Origin: Escherichia phage teqhal
DNA length: 64,000 nucleotides
Direction: 5' to 3' (one strand)
Sequence record: MN895435.1
The notes beneath the pieces were generated by a model. That model saw nothing but the letters and a program-made list of their open reading frames with translations, was not told the origin of the DNA and did no database searches. A program made the position numbers and the translations under genes. Below, in pieces: positions 1 through 39,180 of this stretch; within the stretch, counting starts at the first letter, position 1, and each line of letters opens with the position of its first letter.

Positions 1-1
1 A

Positions 2-244
<243 letters not shown>

Positions 245-263
245 AATAACGCGTGGCGGAAAT

Positions 264-611
264 ATGAATTTTAATTATTACCCTATTCTATTAGAAAAAG
301 ATGAGAAACAGCCAAAGTGGCAGGGTCCTCAGTTTATTAAAGGCGTTTATCAATTAGTAGTTCCTAAAGACAAGATTTATAGTAGTTGTTTCACTGAATC
401 CGCTTGCAGTATTTTCGGTAATAGTTCTCCGTATTGGAATTTTGACATAAAGCTGGATAGAAATATTGATATTTGGTTGAAAGCTATGGATATTGGTAAT
501 ATCACGTTTGATGAGAATAATTATCATATTATTGGTCGTTTTTCCAAACGCGGTAAAGAATTATATTTCACACCTGAAATTGAGAGAAAATTTGATGCTA
601 AACCGTATTGA
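264..611 (+). CDS. hypothetical protein (115 aa) in an insertion between frd and td
   Basis: ATG-initiated ORF in the track; no motif I recognise; sits where T4 frd and td are recalled to overlap. Confidence 0.55.
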   Translation: MNFNYYPILLEKDEKQPKWQGPQFIKGVYQLVVPKDKIYSSCFTESACSIFGNSSPYWNFDIKLDRNIDIWLKAMDIGNITFDENNYHIIGRFSKRGKELYFTPEIERKFDAKPY

Positions 612-656
612 TTATTTAGCTTCATAAAATGTATTATAATTTATATAAGGTACTAA

Positions 657-1517
657 ATGAAACAATACCAAGATTTAATTAAAGACATTTTTGAAAATGG
701 CTATGAAACCGATGACCGAACGGGCACAGGAACAATTGCTCTGTTCGGTACTAAATTGCGTTGGGATTTAACCAAAGGTTTTCCTGCAGTAACAACTAAG
801 AAGCTCGCCTGGAATGCATGCATTGCTGAGCTAATATGGTTTTTATCAGGAAGCACAAATGTTAATGATTTACGATTAATTCAACACGATTCGTTAATCC
901 AAGGCAAAACAGTTTGGGATGAAAATTACGAAAATCAGGCAAAAGATTTAGGATACCATAGCGGTGAACTTGGTCCAATTTATGGAAAACAGTGGCGTGA
1001 TTTTGGCGGTGTAGACCAAATTATAGAAGTTGTTGATCGTATTAAAAAACTGCCAAATGATAGGCGTCAAATTGTTTCTGCGTGGAATCCAGCTGAACTT
1101 AAATATATGGCATTACCTCCTTGTCATATGTTCTATCAGTTTAATGTGCGTAATGGCTATTTAGATTTGCAGTGGTATCAACGTTCGGTAGATGTTTTCC
1201 TCGGTCTTCCATTTAATATTGCATCATATGCTACGTTAGTTCATATTGTAGCTAAGATGTGTAATCTTATTCCGGGAGATTTGATATTTTCTGGTGGTAA
1301 TACTCATATCTATATGAATCACGTAGAACAATGTAAAGAAATTTTGCGTCGTGAACCTATGGATTTATGCGAATTACAATTAAAATTTCCAGATGAATTT
1401 GATGAATGGGACACAGAATCGCAGGTATTTTGGTTGAGTCAATTTGCAAAGCCTCATAATTTTGTTCTTAACAACTATGTATCTCATCTGCCAATTAAAG
1501 GAAAAATGGCGGTATAA
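657..1517 (+). CDS. td: thymidylate synthase, uninterrupted (no group I intron)
   Basis: 286-aa continuous ORF MKQYQDLIKDIFENGYETDDRTGTGT...; classical TS motifs (PPCH, DLIFSGGNTHIY). Confidence 0.95.
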   Translation: MKQYQDLIKDIFENGYETDDRTGTGTIALFGTKLRWDLTKGFPAVTTKKLAWNACIAELIWFLSGSTNVNDLRLIQHDSLIQGKTVWDENYENQAKDLGYHSGELGPIYGKQWRDFGGVDQIIEVVDRIKKLPNDRRQIVSAWNPAELKYMALPPCHMFYQFNVRNGYLDLQWYQRSVDVFLGLPFNIASYATLVHIVAKMCNLIPGDLIFSGGNTHIYMNHVEQCKEILRREPMDLCELQLKFPDEFDEWDTESQVFWLSQFAKPHNFVLNNYVSHLPIKGKMAV

Positions 1518-1540
1518 TTTTAATTTAATTGAGAGGATAT

Positions 1541-1804
1541 ATGATTTTACGATTTAAAGATACTTCTGGTGTCGTTCTTTTTACACTTCCTAATCCAAGC
1601 GAGTTAGAAGTTCCAGGACCAGAACAGCCTATTACCATTTATGGTAAAAAATACTATACTCATAAAATGACTCGTGAGTATTTTGACAATAAAATTTCCA
1701 CAGTTAAAACTTCTTCTGACTGTTACTACGATATTACTGTTTTAACGGAAAAACAATATGAAGAATTATTACCAACCGGGCCGTCTATGCCGGGTAGTGA
1801 ATAA
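1541..1804 (+). CDS. hypothetical protein (87 aa from ATG 1541; track ORF starts at TTG 1529)
   Basis: SD gagagga 1531-1537 then ATG 1541; position matches T4 nrdA.x small ORFs. Confidence 0.55.
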
Positions 1805-2084
1805 ATACAAATCCGACTTTGATGTTAATATTCACCGCGGTACATTTTGGGGAAATTACGTCGGTAAAGATGCTGGCAGCCGGGAGGCTGCCATTGAATT
1901 ATTCAAAAAAGATTTTATACGTCGAATTAAATCCGGAGAAATAACTAAAGCACATTTAGAGCCTTTACGTGGAATGAGGCTAGGATGCACATGTAAACCA
2001 AAGCCGTGTCATGGTGATATAATAGCTCATATAGTTAACCGATTGTTTAAAGACGATTTTCAAGTTGAGGACTTATGCAATTAA
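1758..2084 (+). CDS. hypothetical protein with C-x-C-x-P-x-P-C-H-G-D motif (DUF4326-like, nrdA.1-like)
   Basis: 108-aa ORF; motif [12 protein letters not shown]; stop overlaps nrdA start. Confidence 0.6.
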
Positions 2085-4339
2085 TTAATGTTATCAAAAG
2101 TAGTGGTGTTTCTCAGAGCTTTGACCCACAAAAAATTATTAAAGTTTTATCTTGGGCAGCTGAAGGAACATCGGTAGATCCTTATGAATTATATGAAAAT
2201 ATTAAATCTTATCTCCGTGATGGAATGACAACTGATGATATTCAGACTATTGTCATTAAGGCCGCTGCGAATTCTATTTCGGTTGAAGAGCCTGATTATC
2301 AATATGTAGCTGCACGTTGTCTAATGTTCGCTCTTCGTAAGCATGTTTATGGGCAGTATGAACCACGTTCATTTATTGACCATATTTCTTACTGTGTAAA
2401 TGAAGGTAAATACGACCCTGAATTATTGTCAAAATATTCAGCAGAAGAAATTACATTTTTAGAATCAAAAATTAAGCACGAGCGGGATATGGAATTTACT
2501 TATTCCGGGGCGATGCAATTAAAAGAAAAATATCTAGTTAAAGATAAAACCACTGGTCAAATTTATGAAACTCCACAGTTTGCATTTATGACTATTGGAA
2601 TGGCATTGCATCAAGATGAACCTGTTGATAGATTAAAACACGTTATCCGTTTTTATGAAGCAGTATCTACTCGACAGATTTCATTGCCAACTCCTATTAT
2701 GGCTGGTTGCCGTACTCCGACTCGACAGTTTAGTTCATGTGTTGTTATTGAGGCAGGTGATTCATTAAAGTCTATCAATAAGGCTTCCGCTTCAATTGTT
2801 GAATATATCTCTAAACGCGCTGGAATTGGTATTAACGTTGGTATGATTCGTGCTGAAGGTTCTAAGATTGGCATGGGTGAAGTACGCCATACCGGTGTTA
2901 TTCCTTTTTGGAAACATTTTCAGACTGCTGTTAAATCATGCTCACAGGGTGGAATTCGTGGCGGCGCTGCTACTGCTTATTATCCTATTTGGCATTTGGA
3001 AGTTGAAAATCTTCTCGTTTTGAAAAATAACAAAGGTGTAGAAGAAAACCGCATTCGTCATATGGATTATGGTGTTCAACTGAATGATCTAATGATGGAA
3101 CGTTTTGGAAAGAACGATTACATTACTTTGTTCAGTCCACATGAAATGGGTGGAGAGCTTTATTATTCTTATTTTAAAGACCAAGACCGTTTCCGTGAAT
3201 TATACGAAGCAGCAGAAAAAGACCCTAATATTCGTAAAAAGCGCATTAAAGCCCGTGAACTATTTGAATTGCTCATGACTGAACGCTCAGGAACAGCAAG
3301 GATTTATGTGCAGTTCATTGATAATACGAATAACTATACTCCGTTTATTCGTGAAAAGGCACCTATTCGTCAGAGTAACTTGTGCTGTGAAATTGCTATT
3401 CCAACAAATGATGTGAATAGCCCTGATGCTGAAATTGGATTGTGCACGTTATCTGCATTTGTGTTGGATAACTTCGATTGGCAAGACCAAGATAAAATTA
3501 ATGAATTAGCAGAAGTTCAAGTTCGTGCTCTTGATAATCTTTTGGATTACCAAGGATATCCAGTTCCTGAAGCAGAAAAAGCTAAAAAGCGTCGAAACCT
3601 TGGTGTAGGTGTTACTAACTATGCAGCTTGGCTGGCAAGTAACTTTGCTTCTTATGAAGATGCTAACGATTTAACACATGAACTATTTGAGAGATTACAG
3701 TATGGACTCATTAAAGCATCCATTAAGCTCGCCAAAGAAAAAGGACCTTGTGAATATTATTCAGACACTCGTTGGTCTCGAGGCGAATTACCTATCGACT
3801 GGTACAATAAAAAGATTGACCAAATCGCAGCTCCAAAATACGTTTGTGACTGGTCGTCGCTGCGGGAAGACCTTAAGCTCTTTGGCATCCGTAATAGCAC
3901 ATTATCAGCACTTATGCCATGTGAGTCATCTTCCCAAGTTTCTAACAGTACAAACGGTATCGAGCCTCCACGTGGACCAGTCTCTGTTAAAGAATCAAAA
4001 GAGGGCTCCTTTAATCAAGTCGTGCCCAATATTGAGCATAACATAGACCTCTATGATTATACATGGAAATTAGCTAAGAAAGGTAATAAACCTTATCTTA
4101 CGCAGGTAGCTATTATGCTGAAATGGGTATGTCAATCAGCTTCAGCGAATACATATTATGACCCACAGATTTTTCCAAAAGGAAAGGTTCCAATGTCAAT
4201 AATGATTGATGACCTTTTGTATTTTTGGTATTTTGGCGGAAAAAATTTCTATTATCATAATACCCGTGATGGTTCTGGTACTGATGATTATGAAATAGAA
4301 ACTCCAAAAGCTGAAGATTGTTCATCCTGTAAATTATGA
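2075..4339 (+). CDS. nrdA: aerobic ribonucleoside-diphosphate reductase large subunit
   Basis: 754-aa ORF with ATP-cone N-terminus and class I RNR catalytic core (NLCCEIA..., C-terminal CSSCKL). Confidence 0.95.
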   Translation: MQLINVIKSSGVSQSFDPQKIIKVLSWAAEGTSVDPYELYENIKSYLRDGMTTDDIQTIVIKAAANSISVEEPDYQYVAARCLMFALRKHVYGQYEPRSFIDHISYCVNEGKYDPELLSKYSAEEITFLESKIKHERDMEFTYSGAMQLKEKYLVKDKTTGQIYETPQFAFMTIGMALHQDEPVDRLKHVIRFYEAVSTRQISLPTPIMAGCRTPTRQFSSCVVIEAGDSLKSINKASASIVEYISKRAGIGINVGMIRAEGSKIGMGEVRHTGVIPFWKHFQTAVKSCSQGGIRGGAATAYYPIWHLEVENLLVLKNNKGVEENRIRHMDYGVQLNDLMMERFGKNDYITLFSPHEMGGELYYSYFKDQDRFRELYEAAEKDPNIRKKRIKARELFELLMTERSGTARIYVQFIDNTNNYTPFIREKAPIRQSNLCCEIAIPTNDVNSPDAEIGLCTLSAFVLDNFDWQDQDKINELAEVQVRALDNLLDYQGYPVPEAEKAKKRRNLGVGVTNYAAWLASNFASYEDANDLTHELFERLQYGLIKASIKLAKEKGPCEYYSDTRWSRGELPIDWYNKKIDQIAAPKYVCDWSSLREDLKLFGIRNSTLSALMPCESSSQVSNSTNGIEPPRGPVSVKESKEGSFNQVVPNIEHNIDLYDYTWKLAKKGNKPYLTQVAIMLKWVCQSASANTYYDPQIFPKGKVPMSIMIDDLLYFWYFGGKNFYYHNTRDGSGTDDYEIETPKAEDCSSCKL

Positions 4340-4390
4340 TATAATTTGACTCACGGACGAGTCACCAACTATTAACTAAGCGGAAAATTT

Positions 4391-5569
4391 ATGAGCACAG
4401 TTTTTAATACAAATCCAGTTGATGTTTTAAAAGAACCTATGTTTTTTGGTTCAGGTCTTGGTATTGCGCGTTATGATATTCAACGCCATAAAGTTTTTGA
4501 AGATTTAACCGAAAAGCAATTATCATTTTTCTGGCGTCCTGAAGAAGTAAACTTAATGATGGATGCTGCACAGTTTAATAAGATTCCTCAGTATCAGCAA
4601 AATATTTTTACTAATAATCTGAAGTATCAATCACTTTTGGATAGCATTCAGGGTCGTGCGCCGTCTGCTGTACTTATGTCATTAATTTCAGACCCAAGCC
4701 TTGATACATGGGTTGCTACGTGGACTTTTAGTGAAACTATTCACTCTCGTTCATATACACATATCATGCGAAATCTTTATACTGATCCATCGAAGGTATT
4801 TGATGAGATTGTATTAGATGAAGCTATTATGAAACGTGCTGAATCCATTGGACGTTATTATGATGATGTTCTGACTAAAACTCGTTATTGGGAAAACGCT
4901 AAAGCTGATATCGAATACCAAAAAGAAATTAATGCAGACGAAGATGTTATTGAAGATGCTATTGAGCATGAGACATATTGGAAGCGTGAGCTAATGAAAT
5001 CTCTTTACCTCTGTTTGCATGTAATCAACGCATTGGAAGCTATTCGTTTTTATGTATCTTTCGCATGTACCTTTAACTTCCATAAGAACATGGAAATTAT
5101 GGAAGGCAATGCAAAGATTATGAAGTTCATTGCACGTGATGAGCAGCTTCATCTTAAAGGTACACAATATATTATTCGTCAACTTCAATCTGGTACTGAT
5201 GGCGATGAATGGGTTAAAATTGCTCAAGAGTGTGAACAAGAAGCAGTTGATATTTTCATGGAAGTTAACCGCCAAGAAAAAGATTGGGCAGTTCATTTAT
5301 TTAAAGATGGCGATGTTCCTGGATTAAATACAAATAGCATGTGGAGCTTTATTGATTACTTAACTGTATCTCGTATGAAACAGTGTGGTCTTCCATGCCC
5401 AATTACCGATGCTCCGGTTAAACATCCATATCCTTGGATTCGTGAATATCTTAATTCTGATAATGTTCAATCCGCGCCACAAGAAGTAGAACTGTCATCT
5501 TATCTTGTTGCACAGATTGATAATGATGTTGATGATAAAGTTATGATGAGTTTTAAAAAATACTTTTAA
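4391..5569 (+). CDS. nrdB: ribonucleoside-diphosphate reductase small subunit, uninterrupted (no intron)
   Basis: 392-aa continuous ORF; di-iron R2 fold; only 51 bp after nrdA. Confidence 0.95.
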   Translation: MSTVFNTNPVDVLKEPMFFGSGLGIARYDIQRHKVFEDLTEKQLSFFWRPEEVNLMMDAAQFNKIPQYQQNIFTNNLKYQSLLDSIQGRAPSAVLMSLISDPSLDTWVATWTFSETIHSRSYTHIMRNLYTDPSKVFDEIVLDEAIMKRAESIGRYYDDVLTKTRYWENAKADIEYQKEINADEDVIEDAIEHETYWKRELMKSLYLCLHVINALEAIRFYVSFACTFNFHKNMEIMEGNAKIMKFIARDEQLHLKGTQYIIRQLQSGTDGDEWVKIAQECEQEAVDIFMEVNRQEKDWAVHLFKDGDVPGLNTNSMWSFIDYLTVSRMKQCGLPCPITDAPVKHPYPWIREYLNSDNVQSAPQEVELSSYLVAQIDNDVDDKVMMSFKKYF

Positions 5570-5573
5570 GGAG

Positions 5574-5589
5574 TGGGCCGCAAGGCCCA
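5574..5589 (+). promoter_or_regulatory. hairpin between the Shine-Dalgarno (taaggag 5567-5573) and the denA start codon (split ribosome-binding site)
   Basis: tgggcc-gcaa-ggccca stem-loop followed by ttttatt then ATG 5597. Confidence 0.5.
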
Positions 5590-5596
5590 TTTTATT

Positions 5597-7184
<1,588 letters not shown>

Positions 7185-7187
7185 GCT

Positions 7188-7217
7188 GTTTACAAGTCCC
7201 TCATGTTGTGTTACAGT
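7188..7217 (+). promoter_or_regulatory. early (sigma70-dependent T4-type) promoter, copy A of a duplicated ~60-bp element
   Basis: GTTTAC 7188-7193, spacer, TG-n-TACAGT extended -10; upstream of alc. Confidence 0.6.
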
Positions 7218-7248
7218 AGTCTTACTGACATAACATGAGGACTTTATG

Positions 7249-7752
7249 ATGGATTTACAGCTTATTACTACTGAAATGGTCGTTGAAGCATACGGTGATA
7301 CTACAGATGGGATTTCTGTATTCAAAGGAAATCGTCGAGTTGGATATATCACCGATCTTAAGAAAGATTTAGCTAAGCAAGTCAAGCGGAAAACGACCAT
7401 TAAAGAATATCGAAATCGTCGTCTTGAGCAAGCCCGTGATATGCTTCCTGATGCGGTTGGGGAGATGAAAGTCTTTTTAGAAAATCAACTCGCTAAGTAT
7501 GATTGTGAAGTGTTCATTAATCAGACTCAACCTAATGTTCATATTAACAACTGTAAATGCTATATCATCGTTAATCCTTTGACGGGAAAACATCGTCTTG
7601 GAATTAGTAATCCAAATCGTAGTGCATCGGATATGGCAGAAGATGTTGAGGCATGCTTTAAAATTTCTAAATCTCCAGCTGAACATCATATTTTAATTAA
7701 CGGTCTTTCTCAAGACGATATTATAGAGGTTATTAAAACTTTATGCAATTAA
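7249..7752 (+). CDS. alc: Alc, inhibitor of host transcription on cytosine-containing DNA
   Basis: 167 aa from second ATG (MDLQLITTEM...); position between rnlA and pseT as in T4. Confidence 0.8.
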   Translation: MDLQLITTEMVVEAYGDTTDGISVFKGNRRVGYITDLKKDLAKQVKRKTTIKEYRNRRLEQARDMLPDAVGEMKVFLENQLAKYDCEVFINQTQPNVHINNCKCYIIVNPLTGKHRLGISNPNRSASDMAEDVEACFKISKSPAEHHILINGLSQDDIIEVIKTLCN

Positions 7753-8096
7753 GTAATACGACAGCAGGCTTGTTATTAATTGTAATTGCATTGGGCGGAA
7801 CTTCTTTAATTTTAAAAAATAAAATTGAAAGATTAGAAACGTCTGTTGTAGAAATTACAAAAACGGCCAATGAAAACGCTTTAGCATTAGATAATTTGCG
7901 AATTCAGTATAATTATATTGATGCGATGAATAATAAAAATCGTGAGGCAATTGCTGCTATTGAGCGTGAAAATGAAAAACTGCGCAAAGACGCAAAGAAG
8001 GCGGATGTGGTGGCTCATAAGCCAGGATTGGTTGAAAAACAAATCAACAACTCCTTCAACAAGTTCGCAGAAGACATCCAGGACCTTTCTAAATGA
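7743..8096 (+). CDS. pseT.3: i-spanin-like inner-membrane protein (T4 pseT.3 position)
   Basis: N-terminal TM helix TAGLLLIVIALGGTSLIL then coiled-coil-like region; stop overlaps next ORF start. Confidence 0.7.
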   Translation: MQLSNTTAGLLLIVIALGGTSLILKNKIERLETSVVEITKTANENALALDNLRIQYNYIDAMNNKNREAIAAIERENEKLRKDAKKADVVAHKPGLVEKQINNSFNKFAEDIQDLSK

Positions 8097-8392
8097 TTAG
8101 ACTATCAGCAGTAATATTATCTATTGGTCTTCTAGTTGGTTGTTCGACAAAGCCTCTAGAAGTAAAGAAAGAAACAGTTCATCCTAATTGGCCTGTGCAA
8201 ATAAAGTCATATGACGAAGCTAAACTATCTTGGCAAGTTAAAGTTATCGATGGTAAAGCTTGGGTCGGTATGCCATTTGAAGATTCTCAGGAATTTCGTA
8301 TTTGGCTTAATGATGTAAAACGATATGTACATGATCAGAAAACTATGATATGTTATTATCGCCAAGAGTTAAAAGAGGATAAATGCAAATGA
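8093..8392 (+). CDS. pseT.2: o-spanin-like outer-membrane lipoprotein (T4 pseT.2 position)
   Basis: Signal peptide with lipobox MIRLSAVILSIGLLVGC; 99 aa. Confidence 0.7.
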   Translation: MIRLSAVILSIGLLVGCSTKPLEVKKETVHPNWPVQIKSYDEAKLSWQVKVIDGKAWVGMPFEDSQEFRIWLNDVKRYVHDQKTMICYYRQELKEDKCK

Positions 8393-8613
8393 TTTCATGG
8401 CATCAATTTGAACATCTCAAAGGATTGATTTATGAATCCGAGATGGCTGCAATGATTTATGGACGCCAGATTCAACGATTAGAATCTTTACCTCCAACTA
8501 ATGATGTTTTATTAGCTCAATCACGTGCTAATCTTAAAAATGAATACCAAAATAAGTGGGGTAAAGCATCTAAAGACCTGCATGATTATATTCAATCATT
8601 GGTTGAGAAATAA
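8383..8613 (+). CDS. hypothetical protein (76 aa)
   Basis: ORF with SD aagagga; compact operon spacing. Confidence 0.55.
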   Translation: MQMISWHQFEHLKGLIYESEMAAMIYGRQIQRLESLPPTNDVLLAQSRANLKNEYQNKWGKASKDLHDYIQSLVEK

Positions 8614-8616
8614 TAA

Positions 8617-9841
<1,225 letters not shown>

Positions 9842-10542: not shown

Positions 10543-10572
10543 GGCTCTACCAAACAAATGAGGAAATTGAAA

Positions 10573-11100
10573 ATGAGCGAATGGTTTGAAGAAGATAAGG
10601 TTTATCGCTTTAAAGCTGGATATAAAGATATTTTTAATGAAACTTGCGGGGCTAATAAACGAATTGCTCAGTTTATTGGGGAAAATTCATTTAAAGTAAA
10701 AATTGATCCCGCGAAAAATGTTATTAGCATTAAACGTGAAATTGACGATTACTGGTATAAAGCTGTTGATGTAATGGGTGAATGCTATAAAGATAGCCCA
10801 TTATTTTCAATTACTTATATGTCAGAATATTATTTTTTCGAAGAAGTTCAAAAAGATGATTCTGTCAGTAAATTTGAAATTAAAACTGATAAAGAAATTA
10901 AATGGAAAGTAGTAGGTATTACTGGTTGTATGTTTTATATCTATGCTCAAACTGATACGAAGGAAGAAGCTAAAAAGAAAGCTCTAGAATATCTTGAAGA
11001 GTATGAAGAAGGCCCGGTAATGATTACTCAAGATGCTGAATTAGTTTCTGTCAAATTAGTTAAAAACGTTGAAAGTAAGGAGCTGGGATCAACATGCTAA
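10573..11100 (+). CDS. hypothetical protein (175 aa from ATG 10573)
   Basis: SD gaggaaa 10560-10566 then ATG; ORF. Confidence 0.6.
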   Translation: MSEWFEEDKVYRFKAGYKDIFNETCGANKRIAQFIGENSFKVKIDPAKNVISIKREIDDYWYKAVDVMGECYKDSPLFSITYMSEYYFFEEVQKDDSVSKFEIKTDKEIKWKVVGITGCMFYIYAQTDTKEEAKKKALEYLEEYEEGPVMITQDAELVSVKLVKNVESKELGSTC

Positions 11101-18831: not shown

Positions 18832-18854
18832 GAATAAACACTAGAGAGGATATG

Positions 18855-20948
18855 ATGGAACTCATTACAGAATTATTTGACGAAGATACTACTCTTCCGA
18901 TTACAAACTTAAATCCAAAGAAGAAAATACCACAAATTTTTTCAGTTCACGTTGATGATGCAATTGAACAACCAGGCTTTCGTTTATGTACCTATACATC
19001 TGGAGGTGATACTAATCGCGATTTAAAGATGGGCGATAAAATGATGCATATTGTTCCTTTTACATTAACTGCTAAAGGTTCAATTGCTAAATTGAAAGGT
19101 CTTGGTCCAAGCCCAATTAATTATATCAATTCAGTTTTTACTGTTGCAATGCAAACAATGCGTCAGTATAAAATTGATGCCTGTATGCTCCGTATTCTTA
19201 AGTCTAAAACTGCTGGTCAAGCTCGACAAATTCAAGTTATTGCTGATAGACTTATCCGTAGTCGTTCAGGTGGAAGATACGTCCTTCTTAAGGAACTCTG
19301 GGATTATGATAAAAAGTATGCATATATTCTTATACATCGCAAAAATGTATCACTAGAAGACATTCCAGGAGTTCCGGAAATTAGTACCGAGCTCTTTACT
19401 AAGGTTGAATCGAAGGTCGGTGATGTTTATATCAATAAAGATACTGGAGCTCAAGTAACTAAAAATGAGGCAATTGCAGCATCTATTGCACAAGAAAATG
19501 ATAAACGTTCTGACCAAGCTGTAATCGTTAAAGTTAAAATTTCCCGTAGAGCAATTGCACAAAGTCAGTCATTGGAATCTTCTAGATTTGAAAGTGAATT
19601 ATTCCAGAAGTATGAATCTACCGCAGCTAATTTCAATAAACCTGCTACTGCTCCTTTAATTCCCGAAGCAGAAGAAATGAAGCTTGGAATTAATTCATTA
19701 GCTTCTAAAACTAAGGCAGCAAAAATTATTGCCGAAGGAACTGCGAATGAACTTCACTATGACTATAAATTCTTTTCAAAAAGTGAGGTTAATGAAGTTT
19801 CCGAAAAAATTAAAGATGTAATTCTTAATGCGATCAAAAATGAACCAACTACTTCAATAAAATGTTTAGAGAAATACGCAGCAGCTGTCAATCAATTCTT
19901 TGAAAAATATAAAGATAATTGGCTTGATAAACATAATAAAACTCGTAAAGGGCAGCCAGATGAAGTCTGGGAAGAAATAACTAAAAATTCCTGGAACGCA
20001 GCAAAAACTAAATTCCTCAAACGAATGATTTATAGTTTTTCTGGAATTGGTGCAGGCCCAATGATTGATATTACTATTGCCCGCGATGGTTCTAAATATA
20101 CTCCATCACAAAAGCGTGGCATTAGAGAATATTGCGGTTCAGGATATACTGACATCAATAATCTTCTTTTAGGTCGTTACAATCCAGAACGATATGATGT
20201 AATGAGTGAAAAAGAAATTGAATCTGCTATAAATAATTTAGATTCAGCTTTTGAAAATGGTGACCGTATACCAGAAGGCATTACAGTTTATCGTGCTCAA
20301 AGCATGACTGCTCCTATATACGAAGCACTAGTTAAAAATAAAGTGTTCTATTTCAGAAATTTTGTATCTACTTCTTTAACTCCTATCATTTTTGGACGTT
20401 TTGGAATTACACATGCTGGTATTGGTCTTTTAGAACCAGAAGCTCGTAACGAATTAACGGTTGATAAAAATGAAGAAGGAATAACTATTAATCCAAACGA
20501 AATAAGAGCGTATAAAGAAAATCCTGAATACGTTAAAGTTCAAATAGGATGGGCAATTGATGGAGCTCATAAAGTTAATGTTGTATATCCAGGAAGTCTC
20601 GGAATAGCAACAGAAGCTGAAGTTATTCTACCGCGCGGATTGATGGTTAAAGTTAATAAAATAACTGATGCTTCTAATAATGACGGAACCACGTCTAATA
20701 ATACAAAACTCATTCAAGCTGAAGTTATGACCACAGAAGAACTCACCGAATCGGTAATCTATGACGGAGACCATTTAATGGAAACCGGCGAAGTAGTTGC
20801 AATGACAGGTGATATTGAAATAGAAGACAGAGTTGACTTTGCATCATTTGTTTCATCAAATGTTAAACAGAAAGTAGAATCATCTCTTGGAATTATTGCG
20901 TCTTGCATAGATATTACAAACATGCCTTACAAGTTCGTTCAAGGATAA
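18855..20948 (+). CDS. alt: Alt-family ADP-ribosyltransferase (capsid-packaged), copy 1
   Basis: 697 aa from MELITELFDE...; C-terminal R-S-ExE motifs (YRAQ, VSTSL, EAEVILPRG). Confidence 0.85.
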   Translation: MELITELFDEDTTLPITNLNPKKKIPQIFSVHVDDAIEQPGFRLCTYTSGGDTNRDLKMGDKMMHIVPFTLTAKGSIAKLKGLGPSPINYINSVFTVAMQTMRQYKIDACMLRILKSKTAGQARQIQVIADRLIRSRSGGRYVLLKELWDYDKKYAYILIHRKNVSLEDIPGVPEISTELFTKVESKVGDVYINKDTGAQVTKNEAIAASIAQENDKRSDQAVIVKVKISRRAIAQSQSLESSRFESELFQKYESTAANFNKPATAPLIPEAEEMKLGINSLASKTKAAKIIAEGTANELHYDYKFFSKSEVNEVSEKIKDVILNAIKNEPTTSIKCLEKYAAAVNQFFEKYKDNWLDKHNKTRKGQPDEVWEEITKNSWNAAKTKFLKRMIYSFSGIGAGPMIDITIARDGSKYTPSQKRGIREYCGSGYTDINNLLLGRYNPERYDVMSEKEIESAINNLDSAFENGDRIPEGITVYRAQSMTAPIYEALVKNKVFYFRNFVSTSLTPIIFGRFGITHAGIGLLEPEARNELTVDKNEEGITINPNEIRAYKENPEYVKVQIGWAIDGAHKVNVVYPGSLGIATEAEVILPRGLMVKVNKITDASNNDGTTSNNTKLIQAEVMTTEELTESVIYDGDHLMETGEVVAMTGDIEIEDRVDFASFVSSNVKQKVESSLGIIASCIDITNMPYKFVQG

Positions 20949-20951
20949 ATC

Positions 20952-23009
20952 ATGGAACTTATTACAGAATTATTTGACGGCGCTTCGGCGCCGGTTGTTA
21001 ACTTAAATCCTAAGCATAAAATACCACAAATTTTTGCTATTCAAGCCGGCGAAGAAAGTGTGCTTCCTGGATTTAGATTTTGTACATACACCTCTGGCGG
21101 TGATACAAATAAAAACGTTAAGCCAGGCGATAAAATGATGCATATCGTAATGATAGGCGTCAACGAGAAATTATCGCTGGTTAAGCTTAGAAACTTGGGT
21201 GGAAATCCAATTGGCGTCATTAATGCGGTTTTTGATACTGCTCTTCAAACAATGAAGCAGTATAAAATCGACGCATGCTTATTCCGCGTACTAAAAAGTA
21301 AAACAAATGGCGCAGCTCGTCAAATGCAAGTTATTGCTGACCGTTTAGTACGTACTAAAGGAGCAGGTCGATATGTTCTTTTAAAGGAAATCTGGGATTA
21401 TGATAAAAAGTACGCATATATTATGGTTTACCGTAAAAATGCCAAATTAGAAGACATTCCAGGTGTACCTCCTATTTCAACTGAGTTATTCACAAAAGTT
21501 GAATCAAAGGTTGGTGATGTTTATGTAGACGTTAAAACAGGTAATGCTGTTCCTAAAGCTGTTGCTGTTGCTGCTTCTATTGCTTTAGAAAATGATAAGC
21601 GCACGGATCAAGCTGTTATTCAGAAAACTAAAATTAGTCGTCGATTAGCAGCGCAAGCTCAATATTCTACTGTTGATGCTTCACTTCAGGGTGATAGCTT
21701 CGCTGCTAAGAAATATCAAGAGTTTGAATCTAAAGTTCCGGTATATAAAGCAGAAGGACCAATGAACTCTGGCGTTATTCAGATTGGTTCAAACTTTAGC
21801 AAAGGAGCTATCGGTGGTATGAGAAGTGCTTCTCGTTTTAAATCTAGCGATTATGAACTAGAAAGTTTCCGAAATCATATTGCATTAGCCCATGCACGTT
21901 TACGTGATCCATCTATCAAGTTGCAGAGCGATATAACATATCAAGGTTCTCAAGAATATTTAAAGAATAAAGAATTCTTTGATTATAAAACTGATAAAAT
22001 TTTAAGCGATCTTGCTGATATTAATATTTCTAATAGCTTTGATGTTATTAAGAAAATTATCAATGATTTGGTTAAAGGTTCTAAAGCTACGCCAGATGAA
22101 AAGACAGCTATTATTCAATTTGTCATGAATGGCATTTATAAATTGATTAATGAATCTGCTGCTCAGGCATATGAATACGCAAGCACTGAAGTAACTCCAA
22201 AAGGACTGACTCAGGCTGAGTCTGATGTAATTGAAGATTATTGTGCAGATTCATATGTTGAAATGAACTCGTTCCTTTTGGGTAAACCAGATTCTACCCG
22301 TGAAGAATATATGGAACGAGCTATTAAGCACATTGAGACGTTGGATTCTGCATTCGCTAAAGGTTCAGTTCTTCCTCCAGGAACTACGCTTTATCGTGGA
22401 CAAGAAGTTACCTTTAAAACTTTGCGTCATAACATTGAAAACAAAATGTTCTATTTCAAGAACTTCGTATCGACATCGCTTAAACCAAATATCTTCGGTG
22501 AGCATGGTAAAAACTATATGGCTCTAGATGATTCCGGTGCAGTATTTTCTGGCGAAGGAGAAGGTTCTGTTGATGCAGAAGATTTAATGCATATGGGTAG
22601 TCATTCTGCATATGCTAATGAAGATGCTGAAACTAGCGTAGGTATGGTAATTAAAGGGGCTGAGCGAATCAAAGTTATCGTTCCAGGTCATTTATCAGGA
22701 TTTCCATCAGAAGCTGAAGTTATTCTACCACGTGGAATTTTGTTAAAGATTAATAAAGTAAGCACGTACATGATGAAAGAAACTGCTTATAACAAGTATC
22801 TAATCGAAGGCACAATCGTTCCTCCTTCTGACCAATTAGAAGAATCAGTATATGATGGCGACCATTTAATGGAAACTGGTGAAGTTCGTCCAATGGCTGG
22901 ATTTAATCAATTCCTTGTAGAAGAATCAAAAGAAGAGGAAAACGAAGTTTCTCAAATCTTGGCTTCTTTGGTTAACATCAACGGAATGTCTAAAAAGTTC
23001 AAAATGTAG
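20952..23009 (+). CDS. Alt-family ADP-ribosyltransferase paralogue, copy 2
   Basis: 685 aa, same N-terminus MELITELFD and conserved N-terminal ~230 aa; R-S-ExE motifs (YRGQ, VSTSL, EAEVILPRG); divergent middle region. Confidence 0.85.
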   Translation: MELITELFDGASAPVVNLNPKHKIPQIFAIQAGEESVLPGFRFCTYTSGGDTNKNVKPGDKMMHIVMIGVNEKLSLVKLRNLGGNPIGVINAVFDTALQTMKQYKIDACLFRVLKSKTNGAARQMQVIADRLVRTKGAGRYVLLKEIWDYDKKYAYIMVYRKNAKLEDIPGVPPISTELFTKVESKVGDVYVDVKTGNAVPKAVAVAASIALENDKRTDQAVIQKTKISRRLAAQAQYSTVDASLQGDSFAAKKYQEFESKVPVYKAEGPMNSGVIQIGSNFSKGAIGGMRSASRFKSSDYELESFRNHIALAHARLRDPSIKLQSDITYQGSQEYLKNKEFFDYKTDKILSDLADINISNSFDVIKKIINDLVKGSKATPDEKTAIIQFVMNGIYKLINESAAQAYEYASTEVTPKGLTQAESDVIEDYCADSYVEMNSFLLGKPDSTREEYMERAIKHIETLDSAFAKGSVLPPGTTLYRGQEVTFKTLRHNIENKMFYFKNFVSTSLKPNIFGEHGKNYMALDDSGAVFSGEGEGSVDAEDLMHMGSHSAYANEDAETSVGMVIKGAERIKVIVPGHLSGFPSEAEVILPRGILLKINKVSTYMMKETAYNKYLIEGTIVPPSDQLEESVYDGDHLMETGEVRPMAGFNQFLVEESKEEENEVSQILASLVNINGMSKKFKM

Positions 23010-33424: not shown

Positions 33425-34042
33425 TTATGCCTTACTAAATTTGCCTTTAGAATCTCTTTTCATGAGACGACCTTTAATAAATCCGTCGGGAATAATACCG
33501 TCTGGTTGTATTAATTTATTTATTGCACCGTTATTGACCCAAAAAGTTCCTGTGGTAGTCGGTTTGACTTTACATCCTTTTCTGGACTTTCTATTAGGAT
33601 GAACCATTCCTTTTACAAATCCTTCTGGAACAAGTTCTCCAGGTTTAATAAAAATATTTTTAGTTCCATTGGTGTAACAAGTTGTACCTAATACCGTGCC
33701 CGGTGAGTTTTCAAATCTCTTAGCGGAAGATTCTTTCATCTTTGCTATAACCTCTGTAGTCATAACAATTCCACCAATTCCACCAGGTTTCATATTATAA
33801 TAATTTTTGCTTTTTATTATTTCAGGAGTTATAATTTCTTCTTCATACATGTACGCTTCTTCGGAAGTTTTAAACTCTTTTAGTATTGTTCTAGAGAAAT
33901 TGTTTTCACCATATTTCTTTATAGCCTGCTGAATTGCCTTACCGGAACCAAGGTAACCATCATTCAAGTCATCAGTAGAGTGTTTTCCTATATACTTTTT
34001 ACCGTTTATTAGATTTGTTGTTTCATATACAAAGTGGTACAT
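33425..34042 (-). CDS. GIY-YIG homing-endonuclease-like protein (seg-like)
   Basis: 205-aa ORF; N-terminal HFVYETTNLINGKKYIGKH matches GIY-(10-11)-YIG spacing. Confidence 0.75.
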   Translation of the reverse strand: MYHFVYETTNLINGKKYIGKHSTDDLNDGYLGSGKAIQQAIKKYGENNFSRTILKEFKTSEEAYMYEEEIITPEIIKSKNYYNMKPGGIGGIVMTTEVIAKMKESSAKRFENSPGTVLGTTCYTNGTKNIFIKPGELVPEGFVKGMVHPNRKSRKGCKVKPTTTGTFWVNNGAINKLIQPDGIIPDGFIKGRLMKRDSKGKFSKA

Positions 34043-39097: not shown

Positions 39098-39124
39098 TGC
39101 GCTTTCCTTTTGGTTTATATGATT

Positions 39125-39132
39125 TATTTATA
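39125..39132 (-). promoter_or_regulatory. late promoter for gene 24
   Basis: TATTTATA on plus strand 28 bp upstream of the start. Confidence 0.7.
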
Positions 39133-39148
39133 CCATAAAAACAACTAA

Positions 39149-39167
39149 AGGGACCCGAAGGTCCCTT
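39149..39167 (-). terminator. terminator-like hairpin after gene 23
   Basis: gggacc-cgaa-ggtccc, U-rich tract follows on the minus strand. Confidence 0.6.
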
Positions 39168-39180
39168 AAATCGTCAAAGA

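What the first reader, a model, noticed from the sequence alone, without database searches (positions are those of the whole stretch)
657..5569. Nucleotide-metabolism block lacks the T4 group I introns and the nrdA-nrdB mobile gene
td (657-1517) and nrdB (4391-5569) are single uninterrupted ORFs, and nrdA and nrdB are separated by only 51 bp. T4 as I recall it carries self-splicing introns with homing endonucleases in td and nrdB and a mobE gene between nrdA and nrdB. The phage is therefore a natural intron-minus, homing-site-intact relative, and the td and nrdB exon junctions would be targets for intron homing in a co-infection.
Basis: partly seen in the sequence, partly recalled or inferred. 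Interest (0 to 1): 0.4.

Follow-up and report, generated by a model that had tools for sequence, protein, structure and literature searches.

The report
Ordinary intron-free T4-like td/nrd gene block

Summary
Alignment to T4 NC_000866 shows clean absence of three T4 insertions: the 1017-bp td intron with I-TevI (at 1205|1206), the 700-bp mobE+nrdB.1 block, and the 598-bp nrdB intron with defective I-TevIII (at 5066|5067).

This is not unusual. Phage T2 (AP018813) has the same layout. In the phage collection, junction probes run uninterrupted through the td site in 399/579 matching records, the nrdA-nrdB spacer in 376/511, and the nrdB site in 468/552. About half (16/35) of an evenly spaced sample lacks all three insertions. 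Published reviews already call T4 the outlier.

"Homing-site-intact" is only roughly right. The I-TevI motif CAACG is kept at the right distance, but the site carries 7 synonymous changes, much as T2's does.

For nrdB the proposed mechanism is wrong for a T4 donor. T4's I-TevIII is defunct, and that intron moves in trans through a MobE-dependent nick at nrdB nt 122-126. There the window is T2-type (AAAAG, codon 42 AAG). No cleavage was tested. Verdict: natural, already known, low interest.

The parts
1..244 (+). 3' part of frd (dihydrofolate reductase)
   Evidence: Aligns to the T4 frd 3' end at 94% identity. The closest relative annotates dihydrofolate reductase here.
264..611 (+). 115-aa ORF between frd and td, absent from T4 (where frd and td overlap) and present in T2
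   Evidence: 404 bp are extra relative to T4. Matches phrog_1928, unknown function, E=3e-36, with no Pfam hit. T2 has the same 348-bp ORF. Found in 362 phage records.
657..1517 (+). td, thymidylate synthase, uninterrupted
   Evidence: 286-aa ORF. Pfam PF00303 matched over its full length. Same 861-nt length as spliced T4 td and as T2 td.
1179..1183 (+). CAACG, the I-TevI cleavage motif, at -27..-23 from the empty intron insertion site
   Evidence: Identical to T4 and T2 at the same distance. C1 and G5 are the critical bases, per PMC5009752.
1205..1206 (+). Empty td intron insertion site (td nt 549|550)
   Evidence: The T4 1017-bp intron with I-TevI maps exactly between these bases. There are 7 synonymous differences from T4 within -30..+30.
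1377..1460 (+). Replaced 28-codon patch in td (aa 241-268) relative to T4 and T2
   Evidence: Same length but unrelated sequence, and not a frameshift. The allele is present in 143 records and in the intron-containing phage Maryam.
1541..1804 (+). nrdA.2 homologue (DUF5496)
   Evidence: Pfam PF17600, E=1.5e-59. Annotated at the corresponding position in MZ234018 and T4.
1758..2084 (+). nrdA.1 homologue (DUF4326)
   Evidence: Pfam PF14216. Same position as T4 nrdA.1.
2075..4339 (+). nrdA, class Ia ribonucleotide reductase large subunit
   Evidence: 754 aa with ATP-cone, Ribonuc_red_lgN and Ribonuc_red_lgC domains. Same 2265-nt length as in T4 and T2.
4340..4390 (+). 51-bp nrdA-nrdB spacer, where T4 carries mobE and nrdB.1
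   Evidence: 700 bp of T4 are replaced by 55 bp. T2's 51-bp spacer differs at 5 positions. No terminator-like site was found. Contains the hairpin TGACTC-ACGGAC-GAGTCA at 4347-4364.
4391..5569 (+). nrdB, ribonucleotide reductase small subunit, uninterrupted
   Evidence: 392-aa ORF, Pfam PF00268. Same 1179-nt length as T2 nrdB and 12 nt longer than spliced T4 nrdB.
4512..4516 (-). Position equivalent to the MobE-dependent nick sites mapped in T2 nrdB (nt 122-126, non-coding strand)
   Evidence: The window reads AAAAG with codon 42 = AAG, identical to T2; T4 has CGG. The following FFWRPEE-coding block is identical. Nick mapping comes from PMC2790892.
4870..4990 (+). Hypervariable patch of nrdB (gene nt about 480-600), T2-like, +12 nt relative to T4
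   Evidence: 52-60% identity to T4 per 60-nt bin, against more than 90% elsewhere.
5066..5067 (+). Empty nrdB intron insertion site (nrdB nt 676|677)
   Evidence: The T4 598-bp intron with defective I-TevIII maps here. From -32 to +25 only positions -2 and -5 differ from T4; further differences lie at -33, -35 and -38. The -14/-16 I-TevIII cleavage region (PMC1865063) is identical.
5597..6007 (+). denA (endonuclease II), downstream boundary of the block
   Evidence: GIY-YIG Pfam hit. Annotated as an endonuclease in relatives and as denA in T4.

Best explanation
The window comes from a natural Tequatrovirus (T4-like coliphage). Its frd-td-nrdA-nrdB block is in the common 'empty-site' state: no td group I intron with I-TevI, no free-standing endonuclease gene between nrdA and nrdB, and no nrdB intron. 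The layout matches phage T2 gene for gene. td, nrdA and nrdB are simply expressed as continuous genes.

The consequences in a mixed infection with T4 are inferred from published T4 x T2 work, not shown here. I-TevI would probably cut td at CAACG (1179-1183), and repair would copy the td intron in. MobE would probably cause a nick at nrdB nt 122-126 (4512-4516), and repair would copy in mobE and, by co-conversion over about 550 bp, the endonuclease-dead nrdB intron.
For: Shown here:
- Intact full-length genes.
- Exact, clean absence of the three T4 insertions.
- Layout, gene lengths and 51-bp spacer identical to T2 AP018813, including the extra frd-td ORF.
- 99.0% identity to MZ234018 over 1-9000, and 100% identity to phage teqhad over 1100-5200.
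- Junction probes are contiguous in 399/579 (td), 376/511 (nrdA-nrdB) and 468/552 (nrdB) matching records.
- 16 of 35 evenly sampled Tequatrovirus-level records have no insertion at any of the three sites.
- The td intron is found nearly complete in only 197 records, the nrdB intron in 118, and full T4-type mobE+nrdB.1 in 20.
- Target sites: CAACG is conserved, and all 7 td changes are synonymous. The MobE region is T2-type.
- Maryam and PM105 carry the td intron with a window-type exon-2 flank.

From the literature:
- T4 is the outlier in endonuclease load (PMC2988022).
- I-TevI tolerates sequence variation but needs C1 and G5 of CAACG (PMC5009752).
Against: Nothing contradicts the structural description.

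The predicted recipient behaviour is untested. The td site has 4 substitutions within the 20-bp primary I-TevI binding region. One change (-19 A>G) has no counterpart in T2, and the bases at -22 and -4 also differ from T2's. nrdB nt 129 and 132 differ from T2 next to the nick site.
Confidence: 0.93

Rival explanations
1. The empty sites are homing-resistant ('immune') alleles. Under this reading, the synonymous substitutions around the td insertion site and next to the MobE nick site were selected because they reduce endonuclease binding or cleavage, and that keeps this lineage intron-free.
For: There are 7 substitutions within -30..+30 of the td site, 4 of them in the 20-bp primary binding region, and all are silent. 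Intron-free alleles persist in most relatives even though homing is efficient in the laboratory, a paradox noted in PMC2988022.
Against: The critical CAACG motif is intact at the correct distance. I-TevI is described as generally tolerant of substitutions. T2 carries a comparable set of substitutions (8, six at the same positions), and the literature reports I-TevI-mediated recombination at td in T4 x T2 crosses. Natural intron-containing alleles have the window-type exon-2 flank. The MobE nick pentamer and codon 42 are the susceptible T2 type, not the T4 self-protecting type.
Confidence: 0.06
2. The lineage once carried the introns and/or mobE and lost them precisely, for example by recombination with an intron-free relative. 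On this reading the empty sites are secondary rather than never occupied.
For: Intron presence is patchy among very close relatives. Records 95-97% identical to the window differ in occupancy, so gain and loss events are clearly frequent in this group.
Against: No footprint of former occupancy is visible. The last 21 nt of exon 1 are not the T4 type seen in the intron-containing phages examined here (-6 and -4 differ). The nrdB 5' region lacks the polymorphisms linked to mobE carriage. History cannot be resolved from one sequence. In any case this rival changes the history, not what the locus is.
Confidence: 0.1
3. Artefact: the intron-free state comes from cDNA-derived, engineered or mis-assembled sequence.
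For: None found.
Against: The flanks are about 4-6% diverged from T4 throughout, and the window has its own extra ORFs and variable patches. Hundreds of independently sequenced isolates share the same contiguous junctions. mobE is not an intron, so its absence cannot arise from splicing.
Confidence: 0.01

Closest known systems
Phage T2 frd-td-nrdA-nrdB region (AP018813)
   Same: Same gene order and gene lengths: td 861 nt, nrdA 2265 nt, nrdB 1179 nt. Same 51-bp spacer, same extra 348-bp ORF between frd and td, no introns and no mobE. Same MobE-susceptible AAAAG with codon 42 = AAG, and same exon-2 flank at the td site.
   Different: td is only 88% identical in nucleotides, because the window carries a different 28-codon patch (aa 241-268). 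There are 5 differences in the td site region and 5 in the spacer, plus scattered substitutions in nrdB.
Phage T4 td / nrdA / mobE / nrdB region (NC_000866)
   Same: Orthologous frd, td, nrdA.2, nrdA.1, nrdA, nrdB and denA at about 95-96% nucleotide identity outside the variable patches.
   Different: T4 has the td intron with I-TevI (1017 bp), mobE plus nrdB.1 (700 bp) and the nrdB intron with defective I-TevIII (598 bp). T4 lacks the frd-td ORF. It also has self-protecting polymorphisms at the MobE site, with codon 42 = CGG (PMC2790892).
Phage teqhad (MN895434) and phage vB_EcoM-101117BS1 (MZ234018, Tequatrovirus zeezee23)
   Same: teqhad is 100% identical over window 1100-5200. MZ234018 is 99.0% identical over 1-9000, with identical annotation of uninterrupted td and nrdB.
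   Different: Only minor substitutions. The window appears to be a mosaic of very close relatives rather than identical to one listed record over all 9 kb.
Intron-containing relatives vB_EcoM_Maryam (PQ799574) and vB_EcoM-PM105 (MZ234041)
   Same: The nrdA, 51-bp spacer and nrdB layout is window-like. Maryam shares the window's td C-terminal patch. In both phages the exon-2 flank matches the window's through at least +27.
   Different: They carry the 1016-bp td intron with I-TevI. Their last 21 nt of exon 1 are T4-type. They have a different (207-bp) ORF between frd and td.

Membership tests
T4-type td group I intron with I-TevI | Intron of about 1 kb encoding a GIY-YIG endonuclease, interrupting td at nt 549|550 | tested here: not met
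   td is a continuous 861-nt ORF. The T4 intron maps to an empty junction at 1205|1206.
T4/RB3-type nrdB group I intron with I-TevIII | Intron interrupting nrdB after ...GC(A/G)T, with an HNH endonuclease ORF or its remnant | tested here: not met
   nrdB is a continuous 1179-nt ORF. The T4 598-bp intron maps to an empty junction at 5066|5067.
Free-standing homing endonuclease between nrdA and nrdB (mobE and analogues) | An endonuclease ORF occupying the nrdA-nrdB intergenic region | tested here: not met
   The spacer is 51 bp with no ORF. T4 has 700 bp with mobE and nrdB.1. JLBYU31 has a 732-bp endonuclease gene there.
I-TevI homing site (intron-free td allele) | 5'-CAACG-3' cleavage motif (C1 and G5 critical), 23/25 nt upstream of the insertion site | tested here: met
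   CAACG at 1179-1183, i.e. -27..-23. Requirement taken from PMC5009752 and PMC2988022.
I-TevI homing site (intron-free td allele) | 20-bp primary binding region centred on the insertion site, compatible with I-TevI binding | tested here: inconclusive
   4 substitutions relative to T4 (-6, -4, +3, +6). T2 has 5 in the same region, and intron-containing Maryam and PM105 share the +3, +6 and +18 bases. Binding itself was not measured.
I-TevI homing site (intron-free td allele) | Actual cleavage by I-TevI and intron acquisition | not testable with these tools
   Requires an in vitro cleavage assay or a phage cross.
MobE target (T2-type nrdB 5' region) | Susceptible-type sequence at the nick sites (nt 122-126, codon 42 AAG), followed by the conserved FFWRPEE-coding block | tested here: met
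   AAAAG at 4512-4516 and codon 42 AAG, as in T2. The FFWRPEE block is identical. Within nt 114-131 there is one difference from T2, at nt 129. Criteria from PMC2790892.
I-TevIII homing site (RB3-type donor) | [quoted passage not shown] | tested here: met
   -32..+25 is identical to T4's spliced exon sequence except at -2 and -5. Cleavage positions from PMC1865063. Cleavage was not tested.
Thymidylate synthase / class Ia ribonucleotide reductase genes | Full-length Pfam domain matches above the curated cut-offs | tested here: met
   PF00303 (310 bits). PF02867, PF00317 and PF03477 in NrdA. PF00268 in NrdB.
Genus Tequatrovirus | High nucleotide identity and synteny with classified members | tested here: met
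   97-99% identity over 9 kb to several classified Tequatrovirus genomes. Window-wide synteny with T4 at 93-97%.

The most novel reading that the evidence does not exclude
The most novel reading not excluded: the window's silent substitutions in the I-TevI binding region (-19, -6, -4, +3, +6, +18) and beside the MobE nick site (nrdB nt 129, 132) make these alleles partly resistant to homing. On that reading the widespread empty state would be actively maintained by selection for target-site escape, not merely by lack of exposure.
Probability: 0.07. Interest if true: 0.3.

Novelty: already known. Interest (0 to 1): 0.07.

Why it matters
It matters little beyond correct annotation. Variable occurrence of the td and nrdB introns and of mobE among T-even phages has been documented since the late 1980s: the titles of Pedersen-Lane & Belfort 1987 and Quirk et al. 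1989 appear in the reference list of PMC2988022. Intron-free T2 has served for decades as the standard recipient in homing and marker-exclusion crosses.

The useful outcomes are three. The window is confirmed as a natural, ordinary Tequatrovirus. The predicted endonuclease target positions are given precisely. The nrdB mechanism is corrected: MobE-driven trans homing, not cleavage at the exon junction.

Tried and rejected
1. Rfam scan (gathering thresholds) of the window, with the T4 region as a positive control. It returned no group I intron even in T4, whose introns are split by long ORFs. The scan is uninformative and I did not use it as evidence of absence.
2. Frameshift hypothesis for the 28-aa td difference at aa 241-268. 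Rejected: the other two frames contain stops, and the nucleotide alignment shows a replaced patch of equal length.
3. Sigma-70 promoter and terminator scan of 1-6100. Promoter-like sites are not enriched over shuffles (28 against 24.8±4.1). No terminator-like site falls in the spacer. That is consistent with the statement in PMC2790892 about mobE-less phages, but it is weak evidence. I looked by eye for a MotA-box middle promoter at the nrdA 3' end and found no convincing match.
4. Three primary papers could not be read because they are not held: Sandegren et al. 2005 (PMC1275590), Quirk et al. 1989 (PMC331552) and Bryk et al. 1993 (PMC413435). They are cited only by their titles as listed in PMC2988022.
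5. cDNA, engineered-construct or assembly artefact. Rejected.

Full report
**What is there.** The window is a T4-like coliphage of the genus Tequatrovirus. Bases 1-9000 match hundreds of Tequatrovirus genomes at 95-99% identity. The best is 99.0% to vB_EcoM-101117BS1 (MZ234018). Bases 1100-5200 are 100% identical to phage teqhad (MN895434).

The ORF list gives td at 657-1517 (286 aa), nrdA at 2075-4339 (754 aa) and nrdB at 4391-5569 (392 aa), with a 51-bp gap at 4340-4390. Pfam confirms all three:
- Thymidylat_synt is matched over the entire profile.
- NrdA has the ATP-cone, Ribonuc_red_lgN and Ribonuc_red_lgC domains.
- NrdB matches Ribonuc_red_sm.

**Comparison with T4.** The T4 reference (NC_000866) annotates td as a two-piece join containing I-TevI. 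It annotates nrdB as a two-piece join containing I-TevIII, described there as defective with a deletion in its proximal half. It places mobE and nrdB.1 between nrdA and nrdB.

BLAST of the window against the reverse-complemented T4 region gives collinear blocks broken exactly at those elements:
- 1017 bp of T4 are missing between window 1205|1206.
- 700 bp of T4 (mobE plus nrdB.1) are replaced by 55 bp at window 4336-4390.
- 598 bp of T4 are missing between window 5066|5067.

The exon ends follow the group I rule: U ends exon 1 and G ends the intron at both T4 sites. The deletions are clean, and the spliced T4 genes align codon for codon with the window genes.

**How unusual is it?** It is not unusual. 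Phage T2 (AP018813) has the same layout in every detail: frd, a 348-bp ORF, td of 861 nt, nrdA.2, nrdA.1, nrdA of 2265 nt, a 51-bp spacer, nrdB of 1179 nt, and denA.

Short probes spanning each junction were searched against 50,697 phage records. They are contiguous (≥80% of the probe in one place) in:
- 399 of 579 matching records for the td site;
- 376 of 511 for the nrdA-nrdB spacer;
- 468 of 552 for the nrdB site.

Conversely, a nearly complete T4-type td intron occurs in 197 records, the nrdB intron in 118, and a full T4-type mobE+nrdB.1 block in only 20.

I also took an evenly spaced sample of records matching window 1100-5200. Of the 35 records at Tequatrovirus level, 16 span the same length as the window, meaning no insertion at any of the three sites.

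The literature says the same. The review of T4 mobile elements states that T4 is an oddity with 15 homing endonucleases and that most related genomes have few (PMC2988022). Its reference list includes the 1987 and 1989 papers on variable occurrence of these introns.

**Is it natural?** Yes. The flanks are 4-6% diverged from T4 across the whole 64 kb, with lineage-specific extra ORFs and variable patches. The same junctions recur in hundreds of independent isolates. mobE is not an intron, so its absence cannot come from splicing. The cDNA or engineered-construct rival is excluded.

**The td site as a homing target.** I-TevI recognises about 38 bp. It binds a 20-bp primary region centred on the insertion site and cuts 23/25 nt upstream at CAACG, where C1 and G5 are critical. 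It is otherwise sequence-tolerant (PMC2988022, PMC5009752).

In the window, CAACG is present at 1179-1183, exactly at -27..-23. Within -30..+30 there are seven differences from T4, at -22, -19, -6, -4, +3, +6 and +18. All are synonymous. T2 has eight differences, six at the same positions, and its exon-2 flank is identical to the window's through +27. The literature describes I-TevI-mediated recombination at td in T4 x T2 crosses (PMC2790892).

Two natural intron-containing relatives, Maryam and PM105, give further support. They carry the 1016-bp intron next to an exon-2 flank of the window type, while the last 21 nt of their exon 1 are T4-type. Maryam also shares the window's distinctive td C-terminal patch. 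So the intron does reside and splice in window-like td backgrounds.

'Homing-site-intact' is thus an approximation. The essential motif is intact, the rest is diverged to about the degree seen in T2, and susceptibility is likely but untested.

**The nrdB site.** T4's I-TevIII is non-functional. Wilson & Edgell showed that the T4 nrdB intron is inherited in T4 x T2 crosses only if mobE is intact. They also mapped a MobE-dependent nick to the non-coding strand at nt 122-126 of T2 nrdB. Codon 42 is AAG in all mobE-lacking phages, and the FFWRPEE-coding block follows (PMC2790892).

The window reads AAAAG at 4512-4516, with codon 42 = AAG and an identical FFWRPEE block. It differs from T2 at one position within nt 114-131. 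T4 itself has CGG plus many nearby polymorphisms.

In a T4 co-infection the expected target is therefore about 550 bp upstream of the exon junction. The intron would arrive by co-conversion, which the paper reports can reach up to about 2 kb.

[quoted passage not shown] From -32 to +25 the window differs from T4's spliced exon sequence only at -2 and -5.

**Rivals.**
- *Resistant alleles.* This is not excluded but is disfavoured by the intact CAACG, the T2 precedent, the natural intron-containing alleles, and the susceptible-type MobE site.
- *Secondary precise loss.* This cannot be resolved from one sequence. No donor-type tracts are visible at either site.
- Neither rival changes what the locus is.

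**Limits.** No cleavage, nicking or homing was tested, and none could be. The nrdD intron site lies outside the window. The Rfam scan failed its T4 positive control and was discarded. Three primary papers were not available.

**Verdict.** The arrangement is the common, long-known state of T-even relatives, so it is already known and of low interest.

Noticed in passing
window 1377-1460 (td aa 241-268): A 28-codon stretch near the td C-terminus is replaced by unrelated sequence of the same length relative to T4 and T2 (QLKFPDEFDEWDTESQVFWLSQFAKPHN against VISGLPYKFRYLSTKEQLKYVLKLRPKD). It is not a frameshift. The allele occurs in 143 phage records, including an intron-containing phage.
   Followed up: partly
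window 250-653 (ORF 264-611): The frd-td junction has at least three states. In T4, frd and td overlap with nothing between them. The window and T2 have a 348-bp ORF (phrog_1928, unknown function, 362 records). Maryam and PM105 have a different 207-bp ORF.
   Followed up: partly
window about 4870-4990 (nrdB nt about 480-600): A hypervariable patch in nrdB is only 52-60% identical to T4 and 12 nt longer (T2-like). It lies 80-190 nt upstream of the empty intron site, and the rest of the gene is more than 90% identical.
   Followed up: no
window 4347-4364: The 51-bp nrdA-nrdB spacer contains the hairpin TGACTC-ACGGAC-GAGTCA. Its stem is conserved in T2 although the loop differs by one base. No T-run follows it, and the scan found no terminator-like site there.
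   Followed up: no
window 33425-34042 (- strand): The phage is not free of homing endonucleases. A 205-aa segE homologue (SegE_GIY-YIG, phrog_314 homing endonuclease) sits where T4 has segE.
   Followed up: partly
window 39110-39169: T4 segD, between genes 23 and 24, is absent. 789 bp of T4 correspond to 60 bp here.
   Followed up: no
window 18852-20948 and 20952-23009: There are two adjacent full-length Alt-like ADP-ribosyltransferase genes (698 and 685 aa, both with PF03496). T4 has one alt gene plus the short remnants alt.-1 and alt.-2 of an old duplication.
   Followed up: partly
window 8617-8937 and 10558-11100: Two further ORFs are absent from T4 at these positions: 106 aa (phrog_2364) next to pseT, and 180 aa (phrog_3710) in the cd.2/cd.3 region. 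Both are of unknown function.
   Followed up: no
L007 4437-5168 (phage JLBYU31): A close relative carries a 732-bp putative homing endonuclease gene filling the nrdA-nrdB gap and abutting both genes. It is larger than T4 mobE (426 bp), which shows that different endonuclease genes occupy this hotspot.
   Followed up: no
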